Of a stretch of 64,000 nt of DNA, positions 36,661 to 63,402 are shown in pieces. The stretch is taken from the NCBI GenBank assembly GCA_024275165.1, contig JAJRZQ010000002.1, forward strand, positions 76,679 through 140,678, given 5' to 3'. The stretch comes from a bacterium. Its GTDB lineage: Bacteria; SAR324; XYD2-FULL-50-16. How positions within the stretch are numbered: position 1 is the first letter of the stretch; each line of letters opens with the position of its first letter. Both the position numbers and the translations under genes were made by a program. A model generated the notes under the pieces. That model was given only the letters and a program-made list of their open reading frames with translations. It had not been told where the DNA came from and ran no database searches.

Positions 36661-37278
36661 TCAATACCTCATGAGAAATTGCAGGCCCAGATTTTTTTGT
36701 TCTTTTAAGCCTTCTTGATCCAGCCCGCGCATGAAGCGCGCCTCCAAAGCCAGAAAGGCATTGAGGTAATAAACAAAGCCTAGGGCGGCGAGATTGCCTT
36801 GCAGAATTGTTTCGGGAGAAAGGGCCTGGGCTTGAGCCAACTGGTAGGTTAGGTTGTATTTGCCCAACCAGAGGTCGAGGGTGAGTTGGTTTTGCCATAG
36901 GCTGTAGCTCCACCCCACCCCGAGTCGCTCCTGGTGTACCTGGAGGTAATCATAGCTGGAAGAGCCGCTGAGGATTGGGGTTTTTAACTTTTCCGCGCCA
37001 TCCAAAAAAGCGTATTCCAGCAGGAGGCCCTTTAGGCGGCAGCCAAAGGAGGTCTCAAAGGGGTGTTTGAAGTTGAAGGCTTTTTTTTGGGGGCTTGCGC
37101 TTTGCCCTTGCAGGCGGTAGGTCGGTGAAAAATCACTAAAGCTTAAGGAGCAGATGTTTTGCCCCTCCAGGGCTAAAATGCGGGTGCGCCCCTTTTGGGG
37201 GTTGATGGGTCTCAGCTCTTGGCTGAAGACAGGCAAGCTGATGGCCAATAAGAGGAAGGCGAGGCAAACTGCTTTCAT
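36661..37278 (-). CDS. small outer-membrane beta-barrel-like hypothetical protein
   Basis: signal peptide MKAVCLAFLLLAISLPVFSQE, C-terminal ...LMRY. Confidence 0.5.
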   Translation of the reverse strand: MKAVCLAFLLLAISLPVFSQELRPINPQKGRTRILALEGQNICSLSFSDFSPTYRLQGQSASPQKKAFNFKHPFETSFGCRLKGLLLEYAFLDGAEKLKTPILSGSSSYDYLQVHQERLGVGWSYSLWQNQLTLDLWLGKYNLTYQLAQAQALSPETILQGNLAALGFVYYLNAFLALEARFMRGLDQEGLKEQKNLGLQFLMRY

Positions 37279-44497: not shown

Positions 44498-45574
44498 ATG
44501 AGTCAGCTCTCACCGACCTCATCTTTATCCCCCGTTAGCCAAACCATGCCGGAGTTAAAGCAGAAATTGCTCTTGGTAGACGATCATCAAGAAAATTTAA
44601 CGGTTTTAAAGGCGGTGTTGAAAAATCAAGGCTATGATTTGGTGACCGCGTTGAATGGAAAAGAAGCTTTACATCAAGTTACCTTGTTCGATTTTGACTT
44701 GATTTTGCTCGACATCATGATGCCTGAACTCGATGGCTACGAAGTTTGCCAAATACTTAAGGCAGACCCGGATACGGTTGGGGTGCCGATTATTTTTATT
44801 ACGGCTAAAACCGATTTTGAATCCGTGGTCAAAGGTTATGAACTGGGGGCCGTTGATTATGTGACCAAGCCCTTTAACCCCGCGATTTTGCGGGTACGGA
44901 TCAAAAACCATTTGCGTTTGCGGCAAGCGGAGTTGGATTTGAAACGATCCGTAGCCTCCTTAGAGCAAGAAATGGCGCATCGGGTCGAGGTAGAACGAAT
45001 GTTGCGCCTGCGGGAAAAGGAATTAGAGCGCTTTGCCCTGCTCGACGGCTTGACTCAAATCGCCAATCGTCGGCGTTTCGATGAATACCTACAGTTCCAA
45101 TGGGCCAATAAAAAGCGTTCTAAAAAGCCAATCAGCTTGGTTTTATGCGATATCGACTTTTTTAAGCAGTTCAACGATCATTACGGGCATCAAGCGGGGG
45201 ATCAAGCCTTGCAGAATGTGGCCCGCGCCTTGCAACGCACTTTAAAGCGCCCTGAAGATATCGCCTGCCGGTACGGCGGAGAAGAATTTGTTTTGGTCTT
45301 GCCCGATACCCCGACCGAGGGCGCGGTCACGATTGCTCATCGGTTGCAAGAGTTTATTCAGGATTTGCAGATTCCTCATGAGTTTTCCAGGGCCAACCCT
45401 CTGCTGACCTTGAGCATGGGGGTGTCGACCCTGACCCCTGCCAATGATTGCAGTATGGAAGAGCTGATTCAACGGGCCGACCAATGTTTGTACGCGGCGA
45501 AAAGACAGGGTAGAAATCGCGTGGTGGCGGTTCTTGCAGAAGATGAAACAGAGAACGCAACCCCCAATACTTAA
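44498..45574 (+). CDS. response regulator receiver-GGDEF diguanylate cyclase
   Basis: REC (LLVDDHQENL...DLILLDIMMPELDGYEV) + GGDEF with intact RYGGEEF active site. Confidence 0.9.
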   Translation: MSQLSPTSSLSPVSQTMPELKQKLLLVDDHQENLTVLKAVLKNQGYDLVTALNGKEALHQVTLFDFDLILLDIMMPELDGYEVCQILKADPDTVGVPIIFITAKTDFESVVKGYELGAVDYVTKPFNPAILRVRIKNHLRLRQAELDLKRSVASLEQEMAHRVEVERMLRLREKELERFALLDGLTQIANRRRFDEYLQFQWANKKRSKKPISLVLCDIDFFKQFNDHYGHQAGDQALQNVARALQRTLKRPEDIACRYGGEEFVLVLPDTPTEGAVTIAHRLQEFIQDLQIPHEFSRANPLLTLSMGVSTLTPANDCSMEELIQRADQCLYAAKRQGRNRVVAVLAEDETENATPNT

Positions 45575-45586
45575 GGTGTAGGAATC

Positions 45587-46597
45587 ATGTCCGTAGGTAA
45601 ATTAACAGGTCCTAAAAAGGCGGCGATTCTACTTCTGGCGATGGGTGAAGAAGGCTCTGCCGAGGTAATTAAGAATTTAGAGGATCGCGAGATCCAACAG
45701 GTGGGTTATTACATGGCTCGCTTTACGGATGTGGCCCCCGAAGAGTTGGACGCGGTTTTAGAGGAGTTCTACCGTAAGGTAGCCATGCAGGATCAAGGCG
45801 TGGTGATCAACGCCAGCGGGGACTTTGTCAAAAACGCGATTGGCAAGGCCTTGGGGGATGATCGAGCCAAAGAATTGGTGGACAACCTAAAGGCAAGCAC
45901 CGACGAGGGGAGCCTAGATAGCCTGAAATGGCTGGAGCCCAAGGTGATTGCGGGGTTTATTTCAGGGGAACACCCCCAGACCATTGCCTTGATCCTAGCC
46001 CACTTAGAAGACCCGGAACAAACGGCCCATGTTTTGCGAGAACTCCCTGAAAACCTGCAAGCCGATGTGACCTATCGCATGGCGATTTTAGAAGCCATTC
46101 CCCCCGGGGTGGTCAAGGAAATCGAAGAGGTCTTAGCCCGGGAGTTGAGGTCTTCTGGGGCGGCGACCACCGCCAAGGTCGGGGGGGTGGAGGCCGTGGC
46201 CGAAATGCTCAACACCATGGATAAAACCACGGAATCCCGCATTTTAGCGACCATTGAAGAATCCAATCCCGACTTGGCCGAGCAGATTCGTGAATTGATG
46301 TTTACCTTTGAGGATCTCGTTTTGGTGGATCCCAACGGAATGCAGTTGCTGCTGAAGGAAATGCCGCAAAACGAGTTGGTTTTGGCTTTGAAGACAGCGA
46401 GCGACGCCATTAAAGAGCATATTTTTTCTAATATGTCCGAGCGGGCTGCCGACATGGTGCGCGACGACCTCGATGCCCTAGGGGCGGTACGGGTTGCCGA
46501 TGTGGATAATGCCCAGCAAAAAATGGTCAAGGTGGCGCGCAAGTTGGAAGAAGAAGGCAAAATCATCATCTCCGGGGCCGGTGGAGAAGTGGTTTAG
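45587..46597 (+). CDS. fliG: flagellar motor switch protein FliG
   Basis: 336 aa, characteristic FliG N/M/C domains, start 13 nt after DGC stop. Confidence 0.9.
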   Translation: MSVGKLTGPKKAAILLLAMGEEGSAEVIKNLEDREIQQVGYYMARFTDVAPEELDAVLEEFYRKVAMQDQGVVINASGDFVKNAIGKALGDDRAKELVDNLKASTDEGSLDSLKWLEPKVIAGFISGEHPQTIALILAHLEDPEQTAHVLRELPENLQADVTYRMAILEAIPPGVVKEIEEVLARELRSSGAATTAKVGGVEAVAEMLNTMDKTTESRILATIEESNPDLAEQIRELMFTFEDLVLVDPNGMQLLLKEMPQNELVLALKTASDAIKEHIFSNMSERAADMVRDDLDALGAVRVADVDNAQQKMVKVARKLEEEGKIIISGAGGEVV

Positions 46598-46756: not shown

Positions 46757-47561
46757 ATGCAATTTTTACTCGGTGATTACGACTGGGTGCCTCATTTGGT
46801 GGCCCAAACCCAAAAGCCTTTGATCCAAAGCCTCTTAGATGACGAGAATGCCCTATCGCATGGCTATCGCCAGGCCCTGGCCAATCGGCCAGGGTTGATT
46901 CGCACCCCCACGAGGGAGATCAATCAAAGTTTTTTGAGCCCCTTAAAAATGGAAGATCGGGTGGAAGCGGCCTGCAACATCGCGGTCAGCGCAGCCCGCC
47001 AGGCCTTGCGGGTTTTAGGGTTGGACTCGGTGCTTTGCGGGGTCGTGGGGCCCTTGGCGGGAGAGCCTCCTTGGAGCAAGGCCGATGTCTCCCGCTTTTT
47101 GGGGGAGGAGGCCATTTTTTTGATTGATAAAGAGGTAGACTGCCTCCAACTAGAGGGAGTCGGCGACTTAAAGAGCTTTCAACAGGTCTTGGAGATGATT
47201 AAGATGGTCAACTTGGCTCCGGTGCCCCTGTCCGCCTTTTTGGATTTAAGGCAAAAGCCGACGGATCAACTTTGGGTCGATTTGCTGACTTTAGCCAATG
47301 GTTTAGAATTAGAATTGGTGGGGATGGAGCTCACCTTAGAGCAGGCCTTGGATTTACCGCCCCCCCCCGGATTGGGGGGGTGGGGCCGGGGTCGGTTTTA
47401 TGCTCAAACCAGGGGGGAAAAGCTTAAGCCTAGAAGAAGAAGGCCAAGCCTTAAGCCGTTTGGTTGCGATGGACCCAAGCTTAATCTTGGGCGGGCAAGG
47501 AATGCGAGAAGCCCCCTGGCGGCAGTTAACCCAAGCGATGCAGGGATTGCGGGTAGGCTAA
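46757..47561 (+). CDS. hypothetical protein; reading frame probably shifts in C9/G7 tract near 47360-47380
   Basis: ORF 46757 runs into antisense of next gene (composition becomes junk after ~47400); alternative frame from 47400 gives plausible 53-aa C-terminus ending 47561. Confidence 0.35.
47360..47380 (+). repeat. homopolymeric C9 then G7 tract (slipped-strand / phase-variation candidate)
   Basis: ccccccccc gg att ggggggg. Confidence 0.8.
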
Positions 47562-47575
47562 ATGCGCTTGGCCCC

Positions 47576-48085
47576 TTAAAAGAGAAACCAGATGGGACTG
47601 ATATAAAAGGGGTCGTAGTAGTGTTCGTAGGTGATAAAGGTGGACTGGGTGCCGTTGTCATCGTGATAGTCGTTGCTGTGGTGGTGTTCGAGCTGGTTGA
47701 GTCGTTCTTCTTCAGCGTGCAGTTTCGCGTTGAGCTTGGCCCCGCGAGCAATGACATCTTGAATCACCGTTTCCCCGCTCACCCATTCTCCATCATCGCT
47801 GCGATAGGCAAGGTCTTCGATTTGGATGGCACTGTCCACAATCTCCTCAATCTTTTTCCAGGTGAGCCCGCTGACTAAGTCGAATTGCCAGCCGTCGCGG
47901 TGATGATCGAAAAACCCCTCTTTTAAAAAGCTTAAGAATACGAAGTCAGCGGGGTTGATCTGCTTAAACCAAGCAACGGCGATACGGAGGTCGCTAAAGC
48001 GTTCCTCATTGATATAGTCCTCCCAATCTTCGTCATCCAATTCAAAAATCTTTTCAAAAGCAAAGCTGCCCTCTTCTAAATCCAC
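47576..48085 (-). CDS. acidic hypothetical protein; upstream in-frame extension to ATG 48364 interrupted by TAA at 48194-48196
   Basis: translation continuous across stop: ...HMMAKDYL*LDEKNNYHLTAKGQ...AVDLEEGSFAFEK. Confidence 0.5.
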   Translation of the reverse strand: MDLEEGSFAFEKIFELDDEDWEDYINEERFSDLRIAVAWFKQINPADFVFLSFLKEGFFDHHRDGWQFDLVSGLTWKKIEEIVDSAIQIEDLAYRSDDGEWVSGETVIQDVIARGAKLNAKLHAEEERLNQLEHHHSNDYHDDNGTQSTFITYEHYYDPFYISPIWFLF

Positions 48086-48367
48086 CGCGGAATAGATATC
48101 GAAATGGGAAAGGTATTCTTCGTAGCGGAGCTTTAAGTTGGCAAGCTTCTCTTGCCCTTTGGCGGTCAGGTGGTAGTTGTTTTTCTCGTCCAGTTAAAGG
48201 TAGTCCTTGGCCATCATATGGATGAACAGAGGTTCTAAGTCTTGATCGGCGCCTTCTAAGACCACGCTGAATGAATTGTTTTCATTGTGCAGCAAGTCGA
48301 GCAGCACTCCGGCCGCGTATTCCTTGCGTTGCGTTTCATCTAAGGAAAAGTGTTTTTGTCCCATGGG

Positions 48368-50465: not shown

Positions 50466-50467
50466 AA

Positions 50468-50716
50468 CTAGATTTTTACCTTTTTGAGCGGTTTGGGGTT
50501 GGGCTTAAGACGATAAATTTTTTCTAGGCCCGCGAGTTGTTTGGGTTTTTGTTGGCAAGCATTGCAGAGGGCGACCCACTGTTCGGCGTGGTACCAGATA
50601 CGAAAGTAGTCGTCGGGGGCGACCATTTGAAAGACACAGCGCTCCACGCTGCCTTGAGCGGTGCAATGTTGTTTGTACTTGGTGAGGAGTTTTAAATAGA
50701 TCTTTTTGTTTCCCAT
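50468..50716 (-). CDS. small Cys-containing hypothetical protein
   Basis: 82 aa ORF, CxxC-like pairs (C...C, CNAC). Confidence 0.35.
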   Translation of the reverse strand: MGNKKIYLKLLTKYKQHCTAQGSVERCVFQMVAPDDYFRIWYHAEQWVALCNACQQKPKQLAGLEKIYRLKPNPKPLKKVKI

Positions 50717-51236
50717 AGGGGTATATATTGAGGGCGGAGCAGAGCTTTTTTTATGTTTCCTCCTATAAAATAGCTCAACTTGGGCCGGGAGACCAAGAAA
50801 TAATTGGTCAAAATATCAACAGGAACAGGAGGAGGTGTAGGTGGATAATGCCTATGATAACAAATTATTACAATAAAACCCTAGGTAAATATACAAAACA
50901 AATACCCTAGGGGGAACACCGGATTGAAAAAAAATCGTCTTCAGGAATCAGGAAGTGAATTTCTAATCGCTAAACAAATCAATGTATTTTGCTTTTGATT
51001 TGGGGTTGATTCGGTACCCATAGTATTTCTATGCAAGCTGGCCTGATCTAGGAGAAGCCTACAGCCCGCTACCGCGGTCGGCGGGGCGGCTCGCGCGGGC
51101 GCTCGCCGGGTATAAGCGCCCCCGCAATTTTAATATGCTCCGCAGGCCGGGGCTGAAAGCCCCAGACCCCAGTGGTTTTTTAGATTGGGAACCATACACA
51201 CGCCGGATTTATAAACCATCTCTGGCCTTGCAAGAA

Positions 51237-51257
51237 ACTCTGAGTTTTTCAGAGTTG
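51237..51257. repeat. hairpin aactctga-gtttt-tcagagtt related to the repeat family; possible fliQ terminator
   Basis: perfect 8-bp inverted repeat immediately 3' of fliQ. Confidence 0.5.
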
Positions 51258-51259
51258 CT

Positions 51260-51532
51260 TTAAAAACCGAGATAAAAAGGAATGTTGTTGAACACCTTGG
51301 CCATGTATTCGGTGGCGGTGCTTAAAAACCAGGGGAGGAAGAGCATCAAGGCGATCATCACCCCGGCCATCTTGGGGATAATCGCTAAAGTCATTTCTTG
51401 AATTTGCGTTACTGCCTGAAAAATCGAGACCAACAAACCTAAAACCAGCGCGATTAAAAGCAGCGGAGCGGCCAACTTGGTGGCCACCAGCATGGCCTCG
51501 CTCGCTAGGGTAATCACCAGTTCGGGGGTCAT
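51260..51532 (-). CDS. fliQ: flagellar export apparatus protein FliQ
   Basis: 90 aa two-TM protein typical of FliQ. Confidence 0.85.
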   Translation of the reverse strand: MTPELVITLASEAMLVATKLAAPLLLIALVLGLLVSIFQAVTQIQEMTLAIIPKMAGVMIALMLFLPWFLSTATEYMAKVFNNIPFYLGF

Positions 51533-52353
51533 GGGCTCACTCCCGTAAAGCTCTGGACCAAGCTGCCGGTGATCAGGTACCAGCCGTCAACCAAGACAAA
51601 GAGCATGAGTTTAAAGGGCAAAGAGATCATAATGGGGGGGAGCATCATCATCCCCATGGCCATTAAAACCGAAGAAACGACCATATCAATCACCAAAAAG
51701 GGGATGTAGATAATAAATCCCATTTGAAAAGCGGTTTTTAATTCGCTGATCACAAAAGCGGGAATCACCACCCAAATGGGAACATCCGCGATATTTTGCG
51801 GTCGTTTGATCTTGGCGATGCGGACAAACAAGGCCAAATCCTTTTCTCGGGTATAGGTCACCATAAAGCGCTTGATAGGGCGTACCGCCCGTTCCATGGC
51901 CTCTTCTTGCCCAATTTTCTTGGCAAAGTAGGGGCTCAGGGCCTCGTCATAGATCTTGCCCCAGGTGGGGGCCATGAGGAAAAAGGTCAAAAACATGGCA
52001 AATCCAAGCAACACCTGATTGGGTGGGGATTGCTGGGTGCCCAAGGCGTTGCGCAAAAAGCCCAAGACGATGATGATGCGGGTAAAGCTGGTGGTCAATA
52101 AAAGCAATGCCGGGGCCAGGGTCAAGACCGATAAGAGGGCGATGACCTGCAAGGTGCTGGCAACTTGATCCGGGTTGCTGGAGCGGCCGATTTCTAAGTT
52201 GAAGCTGGGGATGGGAACTTGGCTCTGCGCCAGCAAGGGTAAGGCCCATAGGCACCCTACCAGGGGGAGTAAGAGCGTCTTGAGGGAGAGTTTGTTCCAG
52301 GTCATGCTGCATTGTAATTGGGTTCGTGTCATCATGCCAAAGCCTAGGGGCAA
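51529..52353 (-). CDS. fliP: flagellar export apparatus protein FliP
   Basis: signal peptide + conserved FliP C-terminal region (…IPFLVIDMVVSSVLMAMGMMMLPP…). Confidence 0.9.
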   Translation of the reverse strand: MPLGFGMMTRTQLQCSMTWNKLSLKTLLLPLVGCLWALPLLAQSQVPIPSFNLEIGRSSNPDQVASTLQVIALLSVLTLAPALLLLTTSFTRIIIVLGFLRNALGTQQSPPNQVLLGFAMFLTFFLMAPTWGKIYDEALSPYFAKKIGQEEAMERAVRPIKRFMVTYTREKDLALFVRIAKIKRPQNIADVPIWVVIPAFVISELKTAFQMGFIIYIPFLVIDMVVSSVLMAMGMMMLPPIMISLPFKLMLFVLVDGWYLITGSLVQSFTGVSP

Positions 52354-61893: not shown

Positions 61894-62886
61894 ATGAGCT
61901 TAAAAATCAATCACAATACGGCGGCAATTAATTCCTGGAGGAATTTAAAGGCCACCGATGACGCAATGAATAAGACCTTAGAGCACTTAAGCAGTGGCAA
62001 AAAATTAAACCGCGCTTCAGACGGCCCCGCCAACATGGTCATCGCCGAGCAAATGCGCGGCCAAGTGGCCAGTTTGGAACAGGCGACCAGCAATAGCGAA
62101 ATCGCCATTTCCATGGTGCAAACCGCAGAAGGCAGCTTAAACGAAGTGAGCAATATCTTGATCCGCTTGCGCCAACTGTCGCTACACGCGGCCAACGAAG
62201 GGGCCAACGACGACAAGATGCTGGCCGCGGATCAAGCAGAGATCGACAACTTGATCAGCACTTTAGATGGAATCAGTCACCAGGCGCAGTTCGGTACCCG
62301 GATGCTCTTAGATGGTTCCAACGGAATCAGCGGGGTCGGTGTGGGCGATGGGATTCGCTTTGTCTCGGCGATTACCGAGACCGAATCGAGCCCGGCAGAC
62401 GGCTACGAGGTGGATATCACCCAAGCGGCGACCAAAGCGAGACTGGAGGGCTCCAGGCCCTTGTCAGATGAGGAGGTCAATGGGGGCAATATCCAAATCA
62501 CCCTGCACGAAGGGGGAAAAAGCCTCACCTACTATACCAAGGTAGGCGAAACCATGGAAGCGATTGTAAAAAATCTAAGCCAGCAGGCAAAGCAGAATAA
62601 TCTTAAACTGGAGTTTGGGATTACCGAAGACAAACGCATGTGGGTCGAACATTTGGAATATGGCTCGGAGCCGAGTTTCGGCGCCGTGGTCGGAGTCGCG
62701 GGCATTTTAACCGAGGAGGCGAACAACTTGGGCGAAGCCGTTCAAGGGACGGATGTCCAGGGCACCATTGGGGGCGAACTGGCCTACGGGGACGGGCAAT
62801 ATCTCACGGGGGCGAAGGGCACCAAGGCCGAGGGTCTGGTGTTGCAATATACCGGTTGGGTAAAAACCCAAATCCAATTGGATTAA
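61894..62886 (+). CDS. fliC: flagellin, N-terminal fragment (terminated by in-frame TAA)
   Basis: conserved flagellin N-domain MSLKINHNTAAINSWRNL... Confidence 0.8.
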   Translation: MSLKINHNTAAINSWRNLKATDDAMNKTLEHLSSGKKLNRASDGPANMVIAEQMRGQVASLEQATSNSEIAISMVQTAEGSLNEVSNILIRLRQLSLHAANEGANDDKMLAADQAEIDNLISTLDGISHQAQFGTRMLLDGSNGISGVGVGDGIRFVSAITETESSPADGYEVDITQAATKARLEGSRPLSDEEVNGGNIQITLHEGGKSLTYYTKVGETMEAIVKNLSQQAKQNNLKLEFGITEDKRMWVEHLEYGSEPSFGAVVGVAGILTEEANNLGEAVQGTDVQGTIGGELAYGDGQYLTGAKGTKAEGLVLQYTGWVKTQIQLD

Positions 62887-62922
62887 CAGGGCAACCCCAT
62901 CCCGGGGGAAGACGGCAAACCC

Positions 62923-63402
62923 TTGCCCCCGAAGGATAAAGCGGAAGGCGCGGTTTATGTGACCAATAACGCCCTCAATTTTCAGATCGGCCCGGCGCAG
63001 GAGCAAACCGCGCGCATCGCTTTACCCAATATCAACGCGCATTCTTTAGGGCGCGGGGTGAAGAACGATTCGGGTTATGCCAGCTTGGGCGAGATTGATG
63101 TGACCACTTTTCAAGGGGCGCAAGACGCTCTCTTGATGATTGATCAGGCGGTCCATGAAGTGACCAATGTGCGGGGCAAGTTGGGTGCTTTCCAAAAGAA
63201 TACCTTGGAGATCAACCTGAACAATCTGCGCTACTCCACAGAAAACCTCATGTCGGCAGAGAGCGAGTTGCGAGATACCGATATGGCCGCGGAGATGAGC
63301 GAGTTTACGAAACAGCAGATTCTCTTAGCAAGCGGCACCGCCATGTTGGGGCAGGCGAACCAAACGCCCAAGGCGGTATTGAATCTCTTAAACGCCCAGT
63401 AA
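62923..63402 (+). CDS. fliC: flagellin, C-terminal fragment in same frame as 61894 ORF
   Basis: conserved flagellin C-domain ...LRYSTENLMSAESELRDTDMAAEMSEFTKQQILLASGTAMLGQANQTPKAVLNLL. Confidence 0.75.
   Translation: MPPKDKAEGAVYVTNNALNFQIGPAQEQTARIALPNINAHSLGRGVKNDSGYASLGEIDVTTFQGAQDALLMIDQAVHEVTNVRGKLGAFQKNTLEINLNNLRYSTENLMSAESELRDTDMAAEMSEFTKQQILLASGTAMLGQANQTPKAVLNLLNAQ

What the first reader, a model, noticed from the sequence alone, without database searches (positions are those of the whole stretch)
47340..47580. C9/G7 homopolymer tract causing a frame change in the gene downstream of fliG: possible phase-variable contingency locus
In ORF 46757 the protein-like sequence ends at ...LEQALDLPPPPG, exactly where a C9 run (47360-47368) and a G7 run (47374-47380) occur. 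The +3 frame beginning at 47400 then encodes a clean 53-aa segment (MLKPGGKSLSLEEEGQALSRLVAMDPSLILGGQGMREAPWRQLTQAMQGLRVG*) that stops just before the convergent gene. Homopolymers of 9 or more are classic slipped-strand mispairing switches. The gene sits immediately after DGC-fliG, so ON/OFF switching could modulate flagellar function. Alternatively it is a homopolymer sequencing error.
Basis: partly seen in the sequence, partly recalled or inferred. Interest (0 to 1): 0.5.

Follow-up and report, generated by a model that had tools for sequence, protein, structure and literature searches.

The report
One-base homopolymer frameshift in a gene
A run of nine C's is one base too long and splits an otherwise intact gene next to fliG into two reading frames; it looks like an ordinary recent slippage lesion or a base miscount, not a demonstrated genetic on/off switch.

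Summary
C9 (47360-47368) and G7 (47374-47380) exist. Removing one base from either run fuses the frame-2 ORF (from 46757) to the frame-3 segment, giving a 267-aa protein that ends at 47561. About 34 homologues of 260-272 aa align across the tract. The repaired protein models as a complete eight-stranded barrel like the homocysteine-binding domain of methionine synthase, but it lacks the zinc cysteines. The tract codes a PPPP/GGG loop before strand 7, so strands 7 and 8 are out of frame. The 373-aa read-through ORF is a by-product of the frameshift.

The contingency-locus reading is not supported:
- No homologue carries the tract.
- CCC and GGG are the preferred Pro and Gly codons here.
- C9 runs are fewer than dinucleotide shuffles predict.
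- The tract lies 76% of the way along a cytoplasmic-type gene.

Two other conserved genes in the window each carry a single in-frame TAA: the convergent partner gene 830 nt away, and a flagellin. Roughly 40 other genes and 17 other long intragenic homopolymers are intact. I therefore lean towards a genuine recent slippage mutation at an incidental hot spot (about 0.45) over an assembly miscount (about 0.3). Only the raw reads can decide.

The parts
46757..47368 (+). Gene X, N-terminal three quarters in frame 2 (strands 1-6 of the barrel, up to ...LDLPPPP)
   Evidence: A family profile built without the window matches residues 2-202 (profile 3-204, 214.7 bits). Pfam S-methyl_trans scores 23.1 bits. 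The AlphaFold model shows strands 1-6.
47360..47368 (+). C9 run (codons CCG CCC CCC CCC = PPPP), the most likely site of the one-base surplus
   Evidence: It is the only G/C run of 9 or more in the window. The frame-3 reading directly after it (D-W) matches 'DW' in the closest C-terminal homologue P0013, but the profile cannot separate C9 from G7.
47374..47380 (+). G7 run (Gly codons), the alternative site of the surplus base; it can pair with the C run in a hairpin
   Evidence: G7->G6 restores the same 267-aa ORF with an equal profile score. The hairpin is no more stable than in shuffled sequence (z = -1.5 as RNA, -0.4 as DNA).
47370..47561 (+). Gene X, C-terminal quarter in frame 3 (DWGGGAGV-GFMLKPGG...LILGGQG...W...; strands 7 and 8, helices 7 and 8; stop at 47559-47561)
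   Evidence: The profile matches positions 212-264, 39.3 bits. The family-invariant residues G213, G246 and W254 and the near-invariant P240 and G245 are all present. The model places strands at 211-216 and 242-245.
47369..47878 (+). Frame-2 read-through tail (about 170 codons) that produces the 373-aa ORF; not a real coding extension
   Evidence: No homologue extends beyond about 272 aa. The tail runs antisense through the conserved convergent gene Y.
47576..48364 (-). Gene Y, a conserved convergent partner (262 codons), interrupted by an in-frame TAA at 48194-48196 where homologues have Glu/Asp
   Evidence: 75 homologues of about 262 aa were found. The window reads KDYL*LDEK where they read KEYLELDEK. 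Y is convergent with or close to X in L090/91, L086-88 and L022.
45587..46597 (+). fliG paralogue directly upstream (context); intact
   Evidence: FliG_N, FliG_M and FliG_C all match at full length.
44498..45574 (+). Response regulator-GGDEF gene upstream of fliG (context); intact
   Evidence: Response_reg plus GGDEF, both at full length.

Best explanation
Gene X encodes a 267-aa (beta/alpha)8 barrel. It belongs to a small family found mainly in SAR324/Lambdaproteobacteria and is distantly related to the homocysteine-binding domain of methionine synthase, but it lacks the zinc-binding cysteines. A loop between helix 6 and strand 7 is coded PPPP-DW-GGG, and with this genome's preferred CCC and GGG codons that produces a C9 and a G7 run. 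In the assembled sequence one of these runs, probably C9, is one base longer than the reading frame requires. Strands 7 and 8 and helices 7 and 8 are therefore out of frame, and translation runs on into a meaningless 170-codon tail. The product cannot close its barrel, so this allele is null. I consider it most likely a genuine, very recent slipped-strand insertion at an incidental mutational hot spot. It would be one of several fresh loss-of-function lesions in this genome: the conserved partner gene Y and a flagellin each carry one nonsense codon. It could revert in principle, as any C9 run can, but nothing indicates it was selected as a switch. Shown: the tract, the frame break and its position, the family, the fold, the absence of the tract in relatives, and the neighbouring lesions. 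Inferred: that the extra base is real rather than a miscount, that the product is null, and that the lesions reflect decay of a linked module.
For: Homologues of 260-272 aa align across the tract (query positions 2-263). A profile built without the window sequence splits cleanly between the frames: frame 2 matches positions 3-204 and frame 3 matches 212-264. Any one-base repair within 47360-47385 gives about 261 bits over positions 3-264. The repaired protein models with pLDDT 96.2 and pTM 0.93 as eight strands. The tract falls in the loop at residues 198-210, the least confident block, and strands 7 and 8 are encoded downstream. Foldseek finds the MetH Hcy domain, MmuM and BHMT at TM 0.74-0.78. 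All invariant residues downstream are retained and the stop sits at the family's usual position, so the lesion is young. The tract is lineage-specific, explained by codon bias and not enriched. The assembly handles other homopolymers well: 17 other runs of 8 nt or more inside long ORFs, including A9, T9, G8 and C8, keep their frames. About 40 other ORFs show full-length Pfam coverage. Two further single-lesion genes exist. Y has an in-frame TAA where homologues have Glu/Asp, probably GAA->TAA. Flagellin has an in-frame TAA at codon 331, aligned to Asp in L034. Only a few percent of random substitutions create stop codons, so two nonsense codons would imply dozens of substitution errors per 64 kb. 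That is hard to reconcile with only one frameshift among 265 runs of 6 nt or more. X and Y are conserved neighbours in other SAR324 genomes, which fits linked decay.
Against: No reads and no second assembly of the same species could be found, so a consensus miscount at the longest G/C run, in a hairpin-forming GC-rich spot, is not excluded. The downstream frame shows no decay at all, which is equally what an artefact predicts. The argument that the nonsense codons are real rests on an error model, not on data. Calling this module decay is post hoc: fliG, fliP and fliQ in the same window are intact.
Confidence: 0.45

Rival explanations
1. Assembly or sequencing artefact: the true genome has C8 (or G6) and an intact 267-aa gene, and the consensus miscounted the longest G/C homopolymer.
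For: The downstream frame is perfectly preserved, with all invariant residues and the normal stop. The break sits exactly at the longest G/C run of the window, next to a complementary G7 that can form a 10-bp GC hairpin. Such sites are hard for polymerases and sequencers (my own background knowledge). The in-frame TAA in gene Y, 830 nt from the tract, could mark a locally poor consensus.
Against: Seventeen other intragenic runs of 8-9 nt are in frame, and about 40 other genes are full length, so there is no general homopolymer or base-quality problem. The other two lesions are substitutions, one of them 15 kb away. An indel-prone platform would not produce that pattern without many more frameshifts.
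Confidence: 0.3
2. Evolved phase-variable contingency locus: the C9 tract is maintained because stochastic ON/OFF switching of X, and through it a FliG/c-di-GMP-linked function, is advantageous. The assembly caught the OFF state.
For: A C9 tract inside an ORF is long enough for high-frequency slippage, and C8 or C11 restores the frame. Homopolymer switching in non-surface, metabolic genes is documented for M. tuberculosis glpK (bioRxiv 10.1101/717272; PMC10334774). X lies next to fliG or response-regulator genes in several genomes.
Against: None of the homologous loci examined at the DNA level has the tract. It is explained by codon bias and is under-represented relative to shuffles. There is only one G/C run of 9 nt or more in 64 kb, so no tract-rich genome style. 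It lies at 76% of the gene, whereas tracts proposed as switches concentrate at 5' ends (PMC2831843, abstract). The partner gene Y and the flagellin are broken by nonsense codons that slippage cannot reverse.
Confidence: 0.12
3. Recoding: C9 is the real genomic state, and full-length X is still made by +1 ribosomal slippage of tRNA-Pro on CCC-C during a polyproline stall, or by RNA-polymerase slippage on the C run.
For: The required shift is +1, and CCC-C lets tRNA-Pro re-pair in the +1 frame without an energetic penalty. About 1% +1 frameshifting was reported for CCC-C in E. coli, although at the second codon (PMC4519876). There are three consecutive CCC-C opportunities within a PPPP stall motif. 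Low-level compensatory frameshifting on a G run is known for herpes virus thymidine kinase (PMC5009743). The codon after the run is GGA, used for 11% of Gly here.
Against: No homologue shares a frameshift at this site, so nothing is conserved. No 0-frame stop or recognisable stimulator follows; the 0 frame stays open for 170 codons. The local RNA structure is no more stable than in shuffles. Efficiencies of about 1% are error-level, not programmed.
Confidence: 0.06

Closest known systems
Homopolymeric-tract frameshift switching in metabolic genes (M. tuberculosis glpK; bioRxiv 10.1101/717272, PMC10334774)
   Same: A G/C homopolymer inside the ORF of a cytoplasmic, enzyme-like protein, where a one-base length change gives a reversible null allele.
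   Different: In glpK, tract-length variants were seen repeatedly across isolates and tied to a phenotype. Here there is a single assembly, no polymorphism data, and no conservation or enrichment of the tract.
5' poly(A)/poly(T) tracts as gene-inactivation switches (L. monocytogenes inlA; PMC2831843)
   Same: Slippage in a coding homopolymer that truncates the product.
   Different: Those tracts are A/T, over-represented and concentrated at the 5' end. This one is C/G, under-represented and lies in the last quarter of the gene.
Ordinary frameshifted gene or incipient pseudogene at a homopolymer hot spot
   Same: A single lesion in an otherwise conserved ORF. Neighbouring genes carry single nonsense codons. 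The gene caller produced an over-long read-through ORF.
   Different: Nothing distinguishes it on present evidence. That is why I score it as ordinary.
+1 slippage of tRNA-Pro at CCC-C, and compensatory frameshifting on G runs (PMC4519876; PMC5009743)
   Same: The sequence (CCC CCC CCC G) is a textbook +1-slippery context, and the needed shift is +1.
   Different: There is no conserved site, stimulator or 0-frame stop, and the documented efficiencies are at error level.
Homocysteine S-methyltransferase domain (Pfam PF02574; MetH N-terminal barrel, MmuM, BHMT)
   Same: Same (beta/alpha)8 fold (TM 0.74-0.78), a marginal Pfam hit, and a profile hit to T. maritima MetH.
   Different: There are no cysteines after residue 128. 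The MetH 'GINC' cysteine aligns to Leu in G-M-E-L. By my own comparison of the motifs, 'GGCCG' corresponds to 'LGGQG'. So the zinc site that defines catalysis is missing, and the protein is probably a non-catalytic or repurposed relative.

Membership tests
Simple-sequence contingency (phase-variable) locus | Hypermutable repeat tract within the ORF or promoter | tested here: met
   C9 at 47360-47368 and G7 at 47374-47380, both inside the ORF.
Simple-sequence contingency (phase-variable) locus | Tract-length change toggles between an intact and a disrupted reading frame | tested here: met
   In silico, C8, G6 or C11 gives an ORF of 267-268 aa and about 261 bits on the family profile. As assembled, the match is split at 214.7 + 39.3 bits.
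Simple-sequence contingency (phase-variable) locus | Observed tract-length polymorphism within a population or between strains | not testable with these tools
   No reads are available. No second sequence of the same species was found in protein, genome or metagenome collections.
Simple-sequence contingency (phase-variable) locus | Tract maintained by selection (conserved in relatives or over-represented versus expectation) | tested here: not met
   Absent at the homologous site in L001-L004 and L022 (C6 at most). Observed 1 against 4.1 expected C9/G9. CCC/GGG codon bias explains it.
Programmed +1 ribosomal frameshift | Slippery site that allows P-site tRNA re-pairing in the +1 frame | tested here: met
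   CCC-C three times in frame 2. The property of CCC-C is taken from PMC4519876.
Programmed +1 ribosomal frameshift | Frameshift site conserved among orthologues, with a stimulator (0-frame stop, hungry codon, or upstream SD-like element) | tested here: not met
   Among 34 homologues, the full-length ones (260-272 aa) are single ORFs and none shows a frameshift at this site. The 0 frame stays open for 170 codons. The next codon, GGA, is only moderately rare at 11%.
Homocysteine S-methyltransferase domain (PF02574) | Sequence match above Pfam's gathering score | tested here: met
   23.1 bits against a cut-off of 22, covering only residues 37-161. NCBIfam PRK08645 scores 35.5 bits, far below its cut-off of 453.
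Homocysteine S-methyltransferase domain (PF02574) | (beta/alpha)8 barrel superposable on MetH, MmuM or BHMT | tested here: met
   Model pLDDT 96.2. Foldseek: 1q8j TMq 0.77, 5dml 0.74, BHMT 0.64-0.72.
Homocysteine S-methyltransferase domain (PF02574) | Zinc site formed by one Cys after strand 6 and a Cys-Cys pair after strand 8 | tested here: not met
   The window protein has Cys only at positions 73, 93 and 128 (translation). The T. maritima MetH GINC motif aligns to G-L-E-L of the family profile. The family consensus after strand 8 is LGGxG.

The most novel reading that the evidence does not exclude
The C9 tract is a working switch in a free-living SAR324/Lambdaproteobacteria bacterium. It would act either by reversible slippage at the DNA level or by +1 decoding at a polyproline CCC run. 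Either way it would set the level of a zinc-less homocysteine-methyltransferase-like pseudoenzyme that acts with a FliG paralogue, a response regulator/diguanylate cyclase and the conserved partner protein Y.
Probability: 0.1. Interest if true: 0.55.

Novelty: new member of a known kind. Interest (0 to 1): 0.2.

Why it matters
The main value is for annotation. The 373-aa ORF is wrong: the locus is a frameshifted 267-aa gene, and its neighbour Y and a flagellin are interrupted as well. If the lesions are real, this genome is shedding a small set of motility-associated genes. The shared fate of X and Y would then be a modest clue that these two uncharacterised SAR324 proteins work together, possibly with the FliG paralogue. 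If tract length does vary in reads, it would be an uncommon example of homopolymer switching in an uncultured environmental lineage. Nothing here yet calls for that reading.

Tried and rejected
1. I looked for a second copy of the same species to compare tract length.
   - The word-indexed protein search returned only the window's own 373-aa ORF.
   - An exact 25-nt flank search of metagenome contigs gave 0 hits.
   - The exact-protein look-up for the 373-aa ORF found nothing.
2. I ran a window-wide test for other homopolymer frameshifts by adding or removing a base at all 265 runs of 6 nt or more. The candidates at 36692 (T7) and 43750 (G7) turned out to be normal adjacent genes, one with a lipoprotein start and one with an ATGA stop/start overlap.
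3. I tested whether the C9:G7 hairpin is a special structure. The fold is no better than shuffled sequence (z = -1.5 as RNA, -0.4 as DNA).
4. I tried to discriminate C9 from G7 with the family profile. The scores differ by less than 1.5 bits.
5. L089 holds a 186-aa truncated homologue that might have been a second frameshift case. It is cut at profile position 167 with no continuation in any frame, in a 2x-coverage contig, and no homopolymer is involved.
6. I looked for a decayed fliR in the 530-nt ORF-poor stretch after fliQ. By eye, none of the open segments looks like a hydrophobic FliR-type membrane protein; no profile search was run on them.
7. TAA reassignment was considered and rejected. 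TAA ends 25 of 45 ordinary genes.
8. tRNA and Rfam scans of the window found nothing.
9. A higher-order Markov simulation of run lengths timed out. I used the dinucleotide-shuffle figure instead.

Full report
**1. Observation**

The sequence contains C9 at 47360-47368 and G7 at 47374-47380. The ATG ORF from 46757 reads ...ELTLEQALDLPPPPG through the runs and stays open to 47878. That gives 373 aa, which run antisense into the convergent gene. Frame 3 is open from 47340 and ends at 47561, 14 nt before the convergent gene's stop at 47576.

Deleting one base in either run, or adding two, gives one ORF of 267-268 aa. Adding a single base does not. C9 is the only G/C run of 9 nt or more in the window. 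As a sequence feature it is still unremarkable: dinucleotide-preserving shuffles expect 4.1 such runs, and 97 of 100 shuffles contain at least one.

**2. Is the frame break real with respect to the protein family?**

Yes. The word-indexed search found only the window's own 373-aa product. An exhaustive phmmer search of 1.84 billion representatives found about 34 homologues. Most are 260-272 aa and align to positions 2-263 of the repaired query, that is, across the tract.

In the alignment the invariant G213, G246 and W254 and the near-invariant P240 and G245 all lie in the frame-3 part. I then built a profile without the window sequence:
- The assembled frame-2 ORF scores 214.7 bits over profile positions 3-204 and ends at window position 47362.
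- The frame-3 ORF scores 39.3 bits over positions 212-264 and starts at 47388.
- Any one-base repair between 47360 and 47385 gives about 261 bits, continuous over positions 3-264.

The break is therefore confined to 26 nt that hold both runs. The profile cannot tell C9 from G7. The frame-3 residues directly after the C run (D-W) match 'DW' in P0013, the closest homologue for the C-terminal region, which mildly favours the C run. No homologue carries anything like the 170-codon frame-2 tail.

**3. What the gene is**

Pfam gives a marginal S-methyl_trans hit (23.1 bits against a cut-off of 22, residues 37-161). A family profile hits the homocysteine domain of T. maritima MetH and also BHMT.

AlphaFold2 with the 35-sequence alignment models the repaired protein at pLDDT 96.2 and pTM 0.93 as an eight-stranded beta/alpha barrel. 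The strands are at residues 4-6, 47-49, 92-97, 129-135, 158-163, 187-192, 211-216 and 242-245. The lowest-confidence block is 201-210, which is the tract-encoded loop. Foldseek finds the MetH Hcy domain, MmuM and BHMT at TM 0.74-0.78.

The protein has no cysteine after residue 128. The MetH 'GINC' zinc cysteine aligns to Leu, and the family has LGGxG where I infer the enzymes have GGCCG (my own comparison of the motifs). The defining zinc site is therefore absent, and the protein is probably a pseudoenzyme or a repurposed barrel.

Strands 7 and 8 and helices 7 and 8 are all encoded after the tract. I infer that the assembled allele cannot produce a closed barrel.

**4. Lineage and neighbourhood**

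Using FliG as an anchor places the window in the SAR324/Candidatus Lambdaproteobacteria group. Gene X occurs in these contexts:
- It follows a fliG paralogue in L002-L004, L022 and L089.
- It follows a single-domain response regulator in L086-88.

Gene Y is the convergent partner (47576-48364, minus strand). It is directly convergent with X in L090/91 and lies within 1-3 kb in L086-88 and L022. TatD, XseB and an aminopeptidase complete a shared neighbourhood.

**5. Is the tract a selected switch?**

The evidence is against it:
- At the homologous site, L001 has LPPSLPDSCAWGF with C6, and L002-L004 have FPDRLGADLPMGF with no run.
- In this genome CCC is 55% of Pro codons and GGG 44% of Gly codons, and CCC-CCC is the commonest Pro-Pro pair. 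A PPPP...GGG loop therefore yields these runs automatically.
- G/C runs of 7 nt or more are about five times denser here than in 771 kb of related loci. C9 is the tail of a compositional distribution.
- The tract lies 76% of the way along the gene. The coding tracts proposed as switches in PMC2831843 concentrate at 5' ends.
- The C9:G7 hairpin is no more stable than in shuffled sequence.

**6. Artefact or real?**

This cannot be settled without reads, and no second sequence of the species exists in the searched collections.

Indirect evidence points to a good assembly. Seventeen other intragenic runs of 8-9 nt keep their frames. About 40 other ORFs have full-length domain matches. Apparent fusions at 36692 and 43750 are normal gene boundaries.

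Two further conserved genes each carry one in-frame TAA:
- Gene Y has TAA at 48194-48196. Its 75 homologues are about 262 aa and have Glu/Asp at that position, consistent with GAA->TAA.
- A 502-codon flagellin (61894-63402) has TAA at codon 331, aligned to Asp in L034.

TAA is the normal majority stop codon (25 of 45 genes), so it has not been reassigned.

Only a few percent of random substitutions create stop codons. Two technical nonsense errors would therefore imply dozens of substitution errors in 64 kb. An error-prone platform of that kind would also break many of the 265 homopolymers of 6 nt or more, yet only one is broken. On that reasoning I lean to real lesions.

X and Y are evolutionarily linked neighbours and both are hit, which fits loss of a shared function. 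This is an inference, not a demonstration. A local miscount at a GC-rich, hairpin-forming C9 remains a serious rival.

**7. Mechanism and rivals**

- Best explanation (0.45): a genuine, very recent slipped-strand +1 insertion at an incidental hot spot, giving a null allele. It is reversible in principle but not evidently selected.
- Assembly miscount: 0.30.
- Evolved phase variation: 0.12. Precedent for homopolymer switching in metabolic genes exists in M. tuberculosis glpK (10.1101/717272; PMC10334774).
- Recoding by +1 slippage of tRNA-Pro on CCC-C, or by transcriptional slippage: 0.06. CCC-C permits penalty-free +1 re-pairing, with about 1% frameshifting reported at a second codon in E. coli (PMC4519876). 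Compensatory frameshifting on a G7 run is known for herpes thymidine kinase (PMC5009743). Here no conserved site, stimulator or 0-frame stop is present.

**8. Verdict**

The contingency-locus interpretation is not supported, though it is not excluded.

This is an ordinary kind of feature, a homopolymer frameshift in an otherwise intact gene, so interest is low. Three side observations are the more interesting leads:
- the zinc-less homocysteine-methyltransferase-like family;
- its conserved pairing with protein Y and with FliG or response-regulator genes in SAR324;
- the two in-frame TAA codons.

Noticed in passing
window 47576-48364 (-), stop at 48194-48196: The convergent gene Y is a conserved SAR324 hypothetical protein; its 75 homologues are about 262 aa and it has no Pfam family. 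It is interrupted by one in-frame TAA where homologues have Glu/Asp (window KDYL*LDEK against KEYLELDEK), consistent with GAA->TAA. The listed 169-aa GTG ORF is only its C-terminal part.
   Followed up: yes
window 61894-63402 (+), stop at 62884-62886: The flagellin gene is split by a single in-frame TAA at codon 331 of 502. Flagellin_N lies in one ORF and Flagellin_C in the next, in the same frame. A homologue in L034 aligns over positions 1-499 without a break and has Asp at that position.
   Followed up: partly
window 48194-48197 and 62884-62887: Both in-frame TAA codons are followed by C (TTTAAC / ATTAAC). Only 3 of 25 genuine TAA stops in the window have C at +4. Both probably arose by G->T at an acidic codon. 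With n = 2 this is only a hint, of either leaky termination or a shared mutational signature.
   Followed up: partly
window 46757-47561; loci L001-L004, L022, L085-L094: Gene X belongs to a small family of about 35 representatives among 1.84 billion. They are homocysteine-S-methyltransferase-like barrels of about 265 aa that lack the zinc cysteines. In SAR324/Lambdaproteobacteria they recur next to a fliG paralogue or a response regulator and next to protein Y. Their function is unknown.
   Followed up: partly
window 45587-46597 versus 46757-47561; L003/L004: FliG is 95% identical to its counterpart in L003/L004, but the gene immediately downstream (X) is only about 42% identical. Either X evolves very fast or it has been replaced by a distant paralogue.
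   Followed up: no
loci L007/L008, L020/L021, L050/L055/L062: Many SAR324 genomes carry two or three fliG copies. The window's copy follows a response regulator-GGDEF gene rather than fliF, so it may be a non-motor paralogue.
   Followed up: no
window 50466-52353 (-): fliP (51529-52353) and fliQ (about 51250-51522) are intact, but no fliR follows. Instead there are about 530 nt without a long ORF and an 82-aa ORF. A Wzy_C/O-antigen-ligase-like gene of 767 aa sits upstream of fliP.
   Followed up: partly
whole window versus 771 kb of related loci: G/C homopolymers of 7 nt or more are about five times denser in this window (25 in 64 kb) than in related SAR324 loci (54 in 771 kb). This matches a strong CCC/GGG codon preference. 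C9/G9 runs are nevertheless fewer than dinucleotide shuffles predict (1 against 4.1).
   Followed up: partly
L089 1913-2473: This homologue of X, downstream of a response regulator and fliG, is truncated at profile position 167 with no continuation in any frame. The contig has 2x coverage, so a rearrangement or a chimeric contig is possible.
   Followed up: partly
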